Part shown: positions 61,818 through 62,106 of the stretch, in pieces
How positions within the stretch are numbered: the first letter of the stretch is position 1
How the letters are laid out: each line of letters starts with the position of its first letter
From: a virus
DNA: 63,019 bases
Direction: 5' to 3' (one strand)
Virus record (IMG/VR): IMGVR_UViG_3300037089_000131
Program-made: the position numbers and the translations under genes
The notes under the pieces: model-generated
Told to the model about the DNA's origin: nothing
The model's input: the letters and a program-made list of their open reading frames with translations, nothing else
The model's database searches: none

Positions 61818-62106
61818 ATTATGGGCGGAAGGTTACAGCGAGTGAGCAGGGACCTAAAAAGTAGCCGGGAGTCATGACCCGGTGAAACCCGATATGTCAC
61901 GCTGATGGACGCCGCCACTGAATCGAAGCTGGCAGACCCGCATGACCGTTCCGGGTAATAAGAGTCAAAGGTCGTTAAGCAATGACCGCCAGCGAAGTCA
62001 CGGGAGCAGATGCAGGGTTCGAGACCTGCCAGCCAAACCAAGGCTGTAGTTCAAGAGGAAGAAGGCTCCCTTCGGGGAGGAGGGAAACTCCTCCCAAGAG
62101 TTTTGA
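61818..62106 (+). ncRNA. ~290-nt highly structured non-coding segment inside tRNA array 2 (tRNA-like T-arm, UUCG tetraloop hairpins, terminal hairpin + T-run)
   Basis: GCAGG-GTTCGAGA-CCTGC then CAGCC-AAACCAA-GGCTG; CTCCC-TTCG-GGGAG; GGAGG-GAAACT-CCTCC-caagagTTTT. No ORF. Confidence 0.3.

What the first reader, a model, noticed from the sequence alone, without database searches (positions are those of the whole stretch)
61818..62106. Unassigned ~290-nt structured RNA segment embedded in tRNA array 2
The segment lies between tRNA-His(2) and tRNA-Arg(CCG) and has no ORF. It contains a T-arm-like hairpin (GCAGG-GTTCGAGA-CCTGC) followed by a CAGCC/GGCTG hairpin and an ACCA-like stretch. It also has two hairpins with UUCG/GAAA-type loops and a terminal hairpin plus T-run. 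A tmRNA-like 3' end was considered, but no matching 5' acceptor strand was found. It could be a tRNA-derived regulatory RNA, a remnant of a split or permuted tRNA, or a new ncRNA class.
Basis: seen in the sequence. Interest (0 to 1): 0.55.

Follow-up and report, generated by a model that had tools for sequence, protein, structure and literature searches.

The report
Permuted tRNA mimic inside phage tRNA operon
A conserved non-coding stretch inside a large phage's tRNA operon is a patchwork of tRNA-derived RNA folds; its core is a tRNA "turned inside out" (acceptor end capped, anticodon end open), like the tRNA-like part of bacterial Y RNAs but without their hallmarks, and its function is still unknown.

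Summary
Positions 61818-62106 lie exactly between tRNA-His and tRNA-Arg(CCG), have no conserved ORF, match no Rfam family, and contain the hairpins described.

It is not one 290-nt RNA. It is a composite of four modules whose presence varies among related phage contigs at the same His|Arg junction:
- M1, a rod hairpin (61824-61916).
- X, a tRNA-like unit without an anticodon arm (61928-61993).
- M3, a circularly permuted tRNA cloverleaf (62002-62070).
- M4, a hairpin (62075-62095), which is not a terminator.

M3 keeps all four helices in three lineages despite 45% sequence divergence. It also keeps tRNA core nucleotides (U8, A14, A15:U48). ARAGORN calls it a tRNA once it is un-permuted in silico.

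Its topology is that of the tRNA-like domain of YrlA Y RNAs, but membership fails: 17.5 bits against a threshold of 69, no Ro60-binding motif, and no TROVE gene nearby. tmRNA is rejected.

Most likely it is co-transcribed with the tRNAs, excised by tRNA-processing enzymes, and acts as a tRNA look-alike. That function is inferred and held at low confidence.

In passing: each tRNA operon of this phage sits behind a short leader ORF whose codons match the tRNAs of that operon, followed by an antiterminator and a terminator. This looks like an attenuator of a kind I found no report of.

The parts
61824..61916 (+). Module M1, an irregular rod hairpin. It is closed by GGCGG (61824-61828) / CCGCC (61912-61916). 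Inner stems are CAGC/GCTG, GTGA/TCAC and GGG/CCC. The tip hairpin is GCCGGG-AGTCATGA-CCCGGT.
   Evidence: Same fold in the MFE of the window and of L011 and in RNAalifold. 92% identical to L011. The substitutions are either in loops or keep pairing (G-C to G-U; an A.A mismatch becomes G-C). Found only in the window lineage and in L011-L013.
61928..61993 (+). Module X, a tRNA-like unit without an anticodon arm. It has a 6-bp acceptor-like closing stem GCTGGC/GCCAGC and 2 nt after it. A D-arm-like hairpin ACCCG-(11 nt)-CGGGT follows, then a 13-nt single-stranded linker. A T-arm-like hairpin GGTCGT..ATGACC is stacked directly on the closing stem. No CCA is encoded.
   Evidence: Absent from L011. 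Present alone between tRNA-His and tRNA-Arg in L021 (7262-7328), and with M3 in L026-L029. 87-94% identical in three lineages, against 72-75% for the adjacent tRNA-His. z = -3.2. In RNAalifold all 17 pairs are kept, with no double changes.
61995..62001 (+). Linker AAGTCAC in front of M3 (AAGTCAC in L011, GAGTCAG in L026).
   Evidence: Alignments. A similar AGTCAG follows the CCA end of true tRNAs in front of other permuted modules (L011 16173-16179).
62002..62070 (+). Module M3, a circularly permuted tRNA-like cloverleaf. In order:
- GGGAG 62002-62006 (tRNA positions 39-43)
- variable loop CAGAT 62007-62011
- T-like hairpin 62012-62029
- acceptor-like hairpin 62030-62046
- TA 62047-62048 (positions 8-9)
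- D-like arm GTTC-AAGAGGAA-GAAG 62049-62064
- G 62065
- CTCCC 62066-62070 (positions 27-31), pairing with 62002-62006
   Evidence: The MFE gives the same four-helix fold in the window and in L026. Pair counts on six modules: 93.7% of cells paired, 17 of 21 pairs changed on both sides, slid controls 42-54%. U8, A14, A15:U48, A21, C13:G22 and G53:C61 are kept. Un-permuted in silico, ARAGORN calls tRNA-Asp(GTC) for the window and L026. The Rfam YrlA model aligns positions 23-85 at 17.5 bits.
62012..62029 (+). T-arm-like hairpin of M3: GCAGG / 8-nt loop GTTCGAGA / CCTGC.
   Evidence: Compensatory changes in the stem: GCAGG/CCTGC in the window, GCGGG/CCCGC in L011, GAGGG/CCCTC in L026. The loop is not a canonical 7-nt T loop (AATCGAGA in L011, TGAGAAT in L026).
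62030..62046 (+). Acceptor-like hairpin of M3: CAGCC-AAACCAA-GGCTG. It is 5 bp plus two A.A oppositions, with ACCA in the loop.
   Evidence: In L026 the same position holds a perfect 7-bp stem TGGGATG/CATCCTA with loop GCCAG (discriminator G, then CCA, then a 1-nt linker).
62075..62095 (+). Module M4, hairpin GGGAGGAG-GGAAA-CTCCTCCC. Its first five bases can alternatively pair with CTCCC 62066-62070 through a TTCG loop.
   Evidence: Present in the window and L011, absent from L026, where M3 is followed by 10 nt and then tRNA-Arg. Not called as a terminator.
61257..61541 (+). Context: the control region of the operon that carries the segment.
- promoter-like box 61257-61288
- leader ORF 61382-61477
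- antiterminator segment CGGTGGGC 61447-61454
- intrinsic terminator 61508-61541, which abuts tRNA-His at 61546

Best explanation
SHOWN. The segment is a composite of tRNA-derived structured modules inserted at the tRNA-His|tRNA-Arg(CCG) junction of a phage tRNA operon. Its conserved core, M3 (62002-62070), is a circularly permuted tRNA cloverleaf that looks derived from a tRNA-Asp. The order is anticodon-stem 3' strand, variable loop, T arm, acceptor stem capped by a loop, D arm, anticodon-stem 5' strand. The acceptor end is therefore closed and the anticodon end is open. X is a second tRNA-like unit that lacks the anticodon arm. M1 and M4 are plain hairpins.

INFERRED. There is no promoter or terminator between 61546 and the end of the window. 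The segment is therefore transcribed as part of the tRNA precursor from the promoter at about 61257-61288, subject to the leader-ORF attenuator. It would be freed by 3' maturation of tRNA-His and by RNase P cleavage at the 5' end of tRNA-Arg. M3 keeps the nucleotides that build the tRNA elbow and core. It would then fold into an L-shaped tRNA body that can neither be charged nor decode.

INFERRED FUNCTION. I propose it works as a tRNA look-alike, a handle or decoy for proteins that recognise the tRNA body. These could be processing or modification enzymes, the phage's own Pnkp/Rnl1/RlaP repair set, or host tRNA-directed nucleases. This is the way the tRNA-like domain of Y RNAs is thought to work, but here without Ro60.

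SEPARATE CONFIDENCES.
- Composite, tRNA-derived, permuted fold: about 0.85.
- Under selection, so functional: about 0.65.
- Excised from the precursor: about 0.6.
- Decoy or scaffold role: about 0.3.
For: Position and lack of a family.

Modularity:
- L011 has M1+M3+M4 without X.
- L021 has X alone, and L026 has X+M3.
- L019 and L023 have no insert.
- L057 has an unrelated 161-nt insert at the same junction.

M3 fold:
- The same MFE fold appears in the window and L026, although they are 55% identical.
- 17 of 21 pairs are changed on both sides, with 93.7% of cells paired against 42-54% when partners are slid.
- tRNA core nucleotides are kept.
- ARAGORN recognises the un-permuted sequence as a tRNA.
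- The YrlA model aligns the stem, T, AS and D elements.

Constraint: the segment is 91-92% identical and X is 87-94% identical between lineages, at or above the values for genuine array tRNAs.

Recurrence: stand-alone permuted modules occur at other gaps of the arrays in every lineage.

Operon context: promoter box, leader ORF and terminator lie upstream, and no + strand terminator is called within the array.

tRNA-conflict context: Pnkp, an Rnl1-like ligase and RlaP are encoded in the window. Jumbo phages with such sets sometimes carry a TROVE protein and a tRNA-like RNA partner (PMC7824862).
Against: - There are no transcript data, so neither expression nor the ends are shown.
- Only three lineages carry M3 and two carry M1. 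The six-row alignment is manual and fitted to the structure. Three of its rows are paralogous modules that may descend from different tRNAs, so part of the 'covariation' is inherited tRNA complementarity rather than selection.
- A tandem duplicate of any tRNA is complementary in this permuted way at birth.
- The window's acceptor-like stem is only 5 bp, the T-like loop has 8 nt, and the loop differs in each lineage, so the elbow contact is not assured.
- Modules are present or absent between close relatives, so none is essential.
- No binding partner is identified. There is no Ro60 motif and no TROVE gene within reach.
Confidence: 0.5

Rival explanations
1. It is a genuine YrlA-type Y RNA. M3 would be the tRNA-like effector domain, and the RNA would work with a Ro60/TROVE protein encoded elsewhere in the (probably >200 kb) phage genome or by the host. 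Together they would tether an exonuclease or repair enzyme.
For: - YrlA is the only Rfam family that aligns to the segment, and it matches the stem-T-AS-D order.
- A stronger YrlA-like match (38.8 bits) lies further down the same array, at L001 15141-15251.
- tRNA core nucleotides are kept, as described for YrlA (PMC4201824).
- The window has RlaP, Pnkp and an Rnl1-like ligase.
- Some jumbo phages carry TROVE plus a tRNA-like partner (PMC7824862).
Against: - 17.5 bits against a gathering score of 69, which is no better than junctions of tandem tRNAs (22 bits). Such junctions are a false-positive type named by the YrlA authors.
- No GNCGAAN0-1G motif in 61818-62106 on either strand.
- No helix formed by the 5' and 3' flanks of M3. 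In L026 only 10 nt follow it.
- No TROVE domain in any window ORF of 390 aa or more, nor among the genes called within 10 kb in five lineages.
Confidence: 0.12
2. It is evolutionary debris: leftovers of tandem tRNA duplications and deletions at a recombination hot spot, transcribed and degraded as spacer, with no function of its own.
For: - A tandem tRNA duplicate that loses its outer halves gives exactly the M3 order.
- Junctions of tandem tRNAs in these arrays score 15-35 bits with the M3 model.
- The His|Arg junction holds different inserts in different lineages, or none.
- The T-like loop is degenerate and the window's acceptor-like stem is 5 bp.
Against: - All 21 M3 pairs are intact in L026 although the sequence is 55% identical to the window.
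- X and the whole segment are conserved as well as, or better than, genuine tRNAs.
- No part resembles a present array tRNA beyond the T loop.
- By general knowledge, not tested here, phage genomes purge useless DNA quickly.
Confidence: 0.15
3. It is a processing or spacer-derived element. Either the tRNA-like modules give RNase P / RNase Z extra cleavage sites that order maturation of the long precursor, or the excised hairpins (M1, X) act as small RNAs or sponges, as the 3'ETS of leuZ does in E. coli.
For: - Location inside a polycistronic tRNA precursor.
- L026 M3 and the L014 paralogue have a 7-bp acceptor stem, an encoded CCA and a 1-2 nt linker. That is the geometry RNase P cleaves in M. 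smegmatis YrlA (PMC4201824).
- X lacks CCA, as RNase Z substrates do (established knowledge).
Against: - Neighbouring tRNAs already provide RNase P and 3'-end sites.
- The window's own M3 has only a 5-bp stem, which the YrlA authors found insufficient for RNase P cleavage.
- No target complementarity was searched for or found.
Confidence: 0.15
4. It is a tmRNA or a piece of one. The idea arises from the reader's 3'-end impression, together with the tag-like ORF AKQETKPDAVAA* that I found at 61384-61422.
For: - T-arm-like hairpin followed by an acceptor strand and ACCA.
- Weak tmRNA_permuted hits: 16.5 bits at 61278-61422 and 14.2 bits at 61789-61926.
- A tag-like reading frame that ends in AVAA-stop.
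Against: - ARAGORN finds no tmRNA.
- The acceptor-like stem has G3-C70, not G3:U70.
- There is no room for a tag ORF after 62046.
- The tag frame carries a stop at its third codon in L014. Another frame (ATG at 61382) is conserved, with synonymous changes and in-frame indels.
Confidence: 0.01

Closest known systems
YrlA-type bacterial and phage Y RNAs (Rfam RF02553; Chen et al. 2014, PMC4201824)
   Same: - A tRNA-like domain in permuted order: closing stem, variable region, T stem-loop, loop-capped acceptor-like stem, D stem-loop.
- tRNA core nucleotides are kept, including the 15:48 Levitt pair.
- Known from large phages with many tRNAs.
- Some members carry a 7-bp acceptor stem that RNase P cleaves.
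   Different: - No Ro60-binding GNCGAAN0-1G motif.
- No terminal helix formed by the two ends.
- No TROVE gene nearby.
- Score far below the family threshold.
- 8-nt T-like loop.
- Embedded in a tRNA precursor and joined to other modules.
Circularly permuted tRNA genes of the red alga Cyanidioschyzon merolae (Soma et al. 2007; from my own knowledge, not read here)
   Same: The 3' half of the tRNA lies upstream of the 5' half, joined by a short linker at the acceptor ends. The un-permuted sequence is a recognisable tRNA.
   Different: - Those genes yield functional tRNAs through a circular intermediate made by the archaeal/eukaryotic splicing endonuclease and ligase at a bulge-helix-bulge motif.
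- Here no intact anticodon loop can be rebuilt consistently. Position 33 would be U, G or A, depending on the lineage.
- No such pathway is known in bacteria or phages.
Two-piece (permuted) tmRNA (Rfam RF04321)
   Same: Gene order: T arm, acceptor 3' strand, CCA, intervening loop, acceptor 5' strand.
   Different: No G3:U70, no pseudoknots, no tag reading frame, no ARAGORN call, and 14-16 bit matches only.
Small stable RNAs co-transcribed with phage T4 tRNAs (species 1 and 2, rnaC/rnaD), and tRNA-precursor spacers with functions such as 3'ETS-leuZ (from my own knowledge, not tested)
   Same: Non-tRNA RNAs that sit in a tRNA transcription unit and owe their ends to tRNA-processing enzymes.
   Different: No sequence or structural similarity was tested. 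Their functions are unknown (T4) or rest on base pairing with sRNAs (leuZ), for which there is no evidence here.

Membership tests
YrlA Y RNA (RF02553) | Score at or above the Rfam gathering threshold (69 bits) | tested here: not met
   17.5 bits, E = 0.35 on the 289-nt segment alone, model positions 23-85 only. Tandem tRNA junctions reach 22 bits.
YrlA Y RNA (RF02553) | T stem-loop, acceptor-like stem-loop and D stem-loop in that order, closed by a stem | tested here: met
YrlA Y RNA (RF02553) | tRNA tertiary-interaction nucleotides, including a covarying 15:48 pair | tested here: met
   U8, A14, A15:U48, A21, C13:G22 and G53:C61 are present in the window, L011 and L026. GG in the D loop is present in the window and L011 only.
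YrlA Y RNA (RF02553) | GNCGAAN0-1G motif near the 5' end (proposed Ro60 contact; PMC4201824) | tested here: not met
   No match to GNCGAAG or GNCGAANG within 61818-62106 on either strand.
YrlA Y RNA (RF02553) | Encoded within about 4 kb of a Ro60/TROVE gene on the same strand | tested here: not met
   No TROVE hit in window ORFs of 390 aa or more, nor among genes called within 10 kb in L001-L003 and L011-L015. The rest of the phage genome could not be seen.
Canonical tRNA | Cloverleaf in normal 5'-to-3' order, recognised by ARAGORN or Rfam RF00005 | tested here: not met
   No call inside 61818-62106. The native-order controls are also negative.
Circularly permuted tRNA gene | 3' half, short linker, 5' half; recognisable as a tRNA after un-permuting | tested here: met
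   ARAGORN calls tRNA-Asp(GTC) for the window and L026 constructs, but none for L011.
Circularly permuted tRNA gene | A functional 7-nt anticodon loop (U33, purine 37) and a 7-bp acceptor stem can be restored | tested here: not met
   The junction would give UU|GUCAC in the window, UG|GUCAC in L011 and GU|GUCAG in L026. The acceptor stem is 5 bp plus two A.A in the window and L011, and 7 bp only in L026.
Circularly permuted tRNA gene | Bulge-helix-bulge motif at the precursor ends and a matching splicing endonuclease | not tested
   Not examined. From my own knowledge, no such enzyme is known in bacteria or phages.
tmRNA (standard or two-piece) | ARAGORN or Rfam detection, a G3:U70 acceptor pair, and a tag reading frame conserved among relatives | tested here: not met
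   No ARAGORN tmRNA. Matches of 14-16 bits against a threshold of 47. G3-C70. The tag-like frame upstream is broken in L014.
Intrinsic terminator (last hairpin plus T-run) | GC-rich stem immediately followed by a U tract | tested here: not met
   Not called on the + strand. Four T begin 5 nt after the stem. The run is TTTAT in L011.
   Searches list none in 61818-62106.

The most novel reading that the evidence does not exclude
M3 and its paralogues in these arrays would be true permuted (split) tRNA genes. RNase P and 3' trimming would open the acceptor loop. The break at the 5' side of the anticodon (33|34) is the very bond that T4-type Pnkp/Rnl1 reseal. The phage's own Pnkp, Rnl1-like ligase and RlaP would close it, giving a tRNA (Asp-like for M3) whose existence depends on the phage repair enzymes.

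The evidence does not exclude this:
- The un-permuted window and L026 sequences are called tRNA-Asp(GTC).
- The window junction would read UU|GUCAC, a good tRNA-Asp anticodon loop.
- L026 has a 7-bp acceptor stem, G73 and an encoded CCA.

The evidence speaks against it:
- L011 would have G33 and is not recognised as a tRNA.
- The window stem has two A.A oppositions.
- No nuclease is known that would trim the flanks.
- The third leader ORF contains Asp codons, which implies an ordinary tRNA-Asp in the third array.
Probability: 0.05. Interest if true: 0.9.

Novelty: new variant of a known kind. Interest (0 to 1): 0.6.

Why it matters
Large phages carry tRNA arrays and RNA-repair enzymes because hosts attack tRNAs. 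This segment shows that such arrays also carry conserved RNAs that are tRNA-shaped but cannot decode.

These are permuted cloverleaves and armless tRNA bodies. They recur at several gaps of the arrays, and they are swapped in and out like cassettes.

If they are decoys or scaffolds for tRNA-binding proteins, they would be a new layer of the tRNA arms race. They would also be a Ro60-independent relative of Y RNAs.

They matter for annotation too. tRNA finders miss them, and the YrlA model confuses them with tandem tRNAs.

The operon context found on the way may matter more. It consists of leader ORFs whose codons match the tRNAs that follow, coupled to a terminator. If real, it is a ribosome-mediated attenuator that lets a phage make tRNAs only when the matching charged tRNAs run short. 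That idea is directly testable.

Tried and rejected
1. tmRNA. A tag-like ORF (AKQETKPDAVAA*) and a weak tmRNA_permuted hit upstream suggested a split tmRNA, with the segment as the acceptor piece. It was rejected because the frame is broken in L014 and another frame is conserved.

2. tRNA with a group I intron, or a long-range acceptor pairing GCTGGCAG (61928-61935) with CTGCCAGC (62026-62033). This was rejected. X closes on its own GCCAGC in L021, where M3 is absent, and there are no intron hits.

3. Recent decay of a present array tRNA. There is no similarity beyond the T loop.

4. Homologues elsewhere. All of these searches were negative:
- GenBank phages by blastn, which found flanking tRNAs only.
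- IMG/VR by three exact patterns and one protein.
- JGI metagenome records by exact pattern. That collection evidently lacks the source contigs.
- GTDB genomes by two patterns.
Relatives came only from protein-anchored look-ups.

5. My descriptor scan for permuted cloverleaves has a high false-positive rate: 55 hits in 1.48 Mb of shuffled sequence. It was used only to point to candidates.

6. 'AGUCA' in front of M3 as an anticodon remnant is ambiguous. The same motif follows the CCA end of true tRNAs ahead of other modules.

7. Comparative support for the array-1 leader failed, because relatives of the upstream protein are not syntenic.

8. A TROVE gene elsewhere in the phage genome could not be searched for.
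Full report
**1. The observation**

ARAGORN and Rfam agree on tRNA-His(GTG) at 61743-61817 and tRNA-Arg(CCG) at 62107-62182. That leaves 289 unassigned bases at 61818-62106.
- GCAGG-GTTCGAGA-CCTGC at 62012-62029.
- CAGCC-AAACCAA-GGCTG at 62030-62046.
- CTCCC-TTCG-GGGAG at 62066-62079.
- GGGAGGAG-GGAAA-CTCCTCCC at 62075-62095.

No Rfam family reaches its threshold. With E up to 10 on the segment alone, the only match is YrlA at 17.5 bits, with nothing for RNase P, 6S, group I introns or ribozymes. ORFs in the segment are short and are not kept in relatives. 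The last hairpin is not called as a terminator. The segment folds better than shuffles, with z = -2.2. The window appears to be a whole 63,019-nt metagenomic contig. The segment is identical in five independent assemblies.

**2. Relatives, and the composite nature of the segment**

GenBank phages, IMG/VR and GTDB genomes hold nothing similar. I reached relatives through the conserved 177-aa protein encoded just upstream of the operon. All relatives have the same layout: this gene, a short conserved region, then a long + strand tRNA array that begins with tRNA-His and tRNA-Arg(CCG). The content of the His|Arg junction differs between them:

| Lineage | Content of the His\|Arg junction |
|---|---|
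| L019, L023 | nothing |
| L021 | ~70 nt homologous to window 61926-61995 |
| L026-L029 | the same ~70 nt plus ~80 nt with the architecture of window 62002-62070 |
| L011-L013 | homologues of 61818-61919 and 61995-62106, joined directly, 91-92% identical |
| L057 | an unrelated 161-nt insert |

The '290-nt RNA' is therefore four modules with separate histories: M1 (61824-61916), X (61928-61993), M3 (62002-62070) and M4 (62075-62095).

**3. M3 is a circularly permuted tRNA-like cloverleaf**

Read in tRNA numbering, the window has the following elements in order:
- GGGAG (positions 39-43).
- CAGAT (44-48).
- A T-like hairpin.
- CAGCCAA (66-72).
- ACC, then AAGGCTG (1-7) and TA (8-9).
- GTTC-AAGAGGAA-GAAG (the D arm), then G (26).
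- CTCCC (27-31), which pairs back to GGGAG.

The evidence for this fold:
- ViennaRNA gives this four-helix fold as the MFE for the window copy and, independently, for the L026 copy. The two are only 55% identical.
- L026 has different sequence in every helix. It has a perfect 7-bp acceptor stem (TGGGATG/CATCCTA) whose 5-nt loop reads G-CCA-G, that is discriminator, CCA and a one-base linker.
- I made a gap-free alignment of the three orthologues and three paralogous modules from other gaps of the arrays. On it, 93.7% of cells pair and 17 of 21 pairs show changes on both sides. Sliding the partners by 1-3 columns drops pairing to 42-54%.
- U8, A14, the A15:U48 Levitt pair, A21, C13:G22 and G53:C61 are present in all three orthologues.
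- When the two halves are put back in normal order with the flanking bases as an anticodon loop, ARAGORN calls a tRNA-Asp(GTC) for the window and L026 constructs. The L011 construct and the native-order controls give nothing.
- The GTTC/GAA D stem and the GUCAC in front of position 39 also recall tRNA-Asp. That comparison is from my memory of E. coli tRNA-Asp, so it is a lead and not a test.

Caveats:
- The alignment is manual and fitted to the structure.
- The paralogues may derive from other tRNAs.
- The window's acceptor-like stem is 5 bp plus two A.A oppositions.
- The T-like loop has 8 nt and varies (GTTCGAGA, AATCGAGA, TGAGAAT).

**4. The other modules**

X is closed by GCTGGC/GCCAGC. 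Two bases later comes a D-arm-like hairpin, then a 13-nt unpaired linker where an anticodon arm would be. A hairpin stacked directly on the closing stem follows, in the way a T arm stacks on an acceptor stem. X encodes no CCA. It is 87-94% identical in three lineages, against 72-75% for the adjacent tRNA-His. Its substitutions lie in loops or turn U-A into U-G. This is conservation without covariation.

M1 is a rod with a tip hairpin. The few differences from L011 keep or extend pairing.

M4 is a strong hairpin present only where M1 is present. Its 5' strand competes with GGGAG 62002-62006 for CTCCC 62066-62070, so two folds are possible. The MFE has the permuted cloverleaf plus M4.

**5. M3 is one of a recurring kind in these arrays**

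A covariance model built from the six modules finds further stand-alone copies in gaps without tRNAs:
- L014 13417 and 14463.
- L019 2852.
- L026 9262.
- L001 14950 and 15157.
- L011 16179 and 16423.
- L023 9870 and its counterparts.

These score 36-65 bits. Junctions of tandem tRNAs score 15-35 bits. Such junctions mimic the pattern, and the YrlA authors already flagged dimeric tRNAs as false positives. The likely origin is tandem duplication of a tRNA followed by loss of the outer halves. What needs explaining is why the product is kept.

**6. Comparison with known families**

YrlA Y RNAs have exactly this topology and the same conserved core nucleotides, and they occur in tRNA-rich phages (PMC4201824). 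Membership fails on every other defining feature:
- 17.5 bits against a threshold of 69.
- No GNCGAAN0-1G motif.
- No helix formed by the flanks.
- No TROVE gene in the 63-kb window, nor within 10 kb in five lineages.

tmRNA is excluded. Permuted tRNA genes of the red-alga type share the gene order. A functional anticodon loop, however, cannot be restored consistently, and the acceptor stem is imperfect in two of the three lineages.

**7. Operon context**

The array has no internal + strand terminator call. It starts 5 nt after a strong intrinsic terminator (61508-61541), which in turn follows a promoter-like box (61257-61288).

Between the two lies a short ORF (61382-61477, MRNRKPNPMQWQHKRNNFRP...). 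It is conserved in seven lineages, with synonymous changes and in-frame indels. Its first 20 codons use only the nine amino acids whose tRNAs form this array. They sample four Arg, three Pro, two Lys and two Asn codons.

Its codons for Y/F-G-G (CGGTGGGC, 61447-61454) are complementary to the 5' arm of the terminator. That complementarity holds in six lineages although the terminators differ.

Array 1 (Tyr, Leu, Ser) has the same promoter box. Its leader, MKNLSSNSLSSLSYSNSLLSVLVLS..., uses all six Leu codons, and a terminator follows. A variant contig, L006, shows a third unit: the same box, leader MILATHITLGDIEAVGIAEAAAVCEGGDT..., a terminator, and then tRNA-Val, Val and Gly. The enrichment of each leader for 'its' amino acids has P of 1e-6 to 1e-9.

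I read these as ribosome-mediated attenuators, which is an inference. A search for 'leader peptide', 'attenuation', 'tRNA gene cluster' and 'phage' listed no paper whose title or abstract describes one; only the 12 best-ranked of 168 papers were shown and none was opened. For the segment itself, this means that it is expressed with, and under the same control as, the tRNAs.

**8. How it most likely works**

Shown: structure, modularity and conservation.

Inferred:
- The segment is part of the precursor.
- It is freed by tRNA-His 3' maturation and by RNase P at tRNA-Arg.
- M3, and perhaps X, present a tRNA body without an anticodon or a free CCA end.

The window also encodes Pnkp, an Rnl1-like ligase and RlaP, the tool kit for repairing cleaved tRNAs (PMC7824862, PMC12776372). 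I therefore favour a tRNA look-alike that binds a tRNA-body-recognising protein as a decoy or scaffold. Confidence in that function is about 0.3.

The rivals are a true Y RNA with Ro60 encoded elsewhere (0.12), debris (0.15), a processing or spacer-RNA role (0.15), and a ligase-matured permuted tRNA (0.05).

**9. Verdict**

This is a real, conserved, tRNA-derived composite RNA. Its core is a new variant of the Y-RNA-type tRNA mimic, in a new context and without the Ro60 hallmarks. It is moderately interesting in itself. The leader-ORF attenuators that control the operon deserve their own follow-up.

Noticed in passing
window 61257-61545; window 30869-31163; L006 2576-2793: Each tRNA operon is preceded by three things: the same promoter-like box (CTGAAAAnnACGACTACCGGnAGnTATTATAT), a short ORF enriched in exactly the amino acids and codons served by the tRNAs that follow, and an intrinsic terminator abutting the first tRNA.
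- Leader 2 (61382-61477): its first 20 codons use only the 9 amino acids of array 2.
- Leader 1 (31005-31109): Leu/Ser/Tyr-rich, with all six Leu codons.
- Leader 3 (L006 2626-2736): 29 of 35 residues fall in the remaining 8 amino acids, followed by tRNA-Val, Val and Gly.
A segment of leader 2 (61447-61454) is complementary to the terminator's 5' arm in six lineages. This looks like ribosome-mediated attenuation of tRNA operons. A literature search listed no paper that describes this.
   Followed up: partly
window 61384-61422: A tmRNA-tag look-alike (GCG AAA CAG ... GCA GCA TAA = AKQETKPDAVAA*) with a weak tmRNA_permuted hit. It is a mirage. The frame has a stop at codon 3 in L014, and the overlapping ATG frame is the conserved one.
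   Followed up: yes
L001 14858-15359 (beyond the window's end); L014 14341-14672; L011 16174-17151: The gap between tRNA-Gln/Arg and tRNA-Trp holds about 330-980 nt, depending on the lineage, of nested tRNA-like pieces in every lineage. They include permuted cloverleaves with canonical T and D loops, some with long inserts in the acceptor loop. L001 15141-15251 matches YrlA at 38.8 bits (E = 4e-7 locally), still below the threshold of 69.
   Followed up: partly
window 62492-62567 (= L001 11519-11594): A tRNA-like gene between tRNA-Asn and tRNA-Lys scores 36 bits with Rfam tRNA. ARAGORN does not call it, and the gathering-mode scan of the whole window missed it. By eye its anticodon loop reads CTTTTAA (Lys UUU) and its T loop is unusual. 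The leader ORF uses an AAA codon.
   Followed up: no
L057 2042-2202; L021 7414-7494: Another conserved spacer RNA motif (GAATCCCCT...GGGATARGCGGYCCCA...GGCGACYCAYGC) sits at the His|Arg junction in L057, but at the Arg(CCG)|Arg(ACG) junction in L021. Small structured cassettes seem to move between tRNA junctions.
   Followed up: no
window 61871-61878 and 61941-61946: The tip loop of M1 carries the 8-nt palindrome GTCATGAC. The D-like loop of X carries CATGAC, which is complementary to it. A kissing contact (M1-X, or M1-M1 dimers) is possible. This may be chance.
   Followed up: no
window 6961-8058, 9210-10667, 56672-57637, 33461-35932 (-): An RNA-repair gene set: Pnkp (kinase plus HAD phosphatase), a T4 Rnl1-type RNA ligase and an RlaP nucleotidyltransferase. 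In addition, an 823-aa protein with Major Vault Protein shoulder and repeat domains lies next to tRNA array 1. A relative, L059 510-2015, encodes a CCA-adding enzyme.
   Followed up: no
window 61705-61742; L011 11841-11878; L021 7146-7185; L026 7180-7216: A conserved ~38-nt leader (TTAAGTCGTGNCGTG...ACCG...GCAGA) precedes the tRNA-His next to the junction in all lineages. In the window and L011 an extra His-Trp pair has been inserted upstream of it.
   Followed up: no
window 62795-62962; L011 11722-11798: A 55-aa ORF sits inside the tRNA array and is kept in L001-L004. ARAGORN reports a 'tRNA-???' with a 2-base anticodon in L011 and similar ones in L014/L015 and L026.
   Followed up: no
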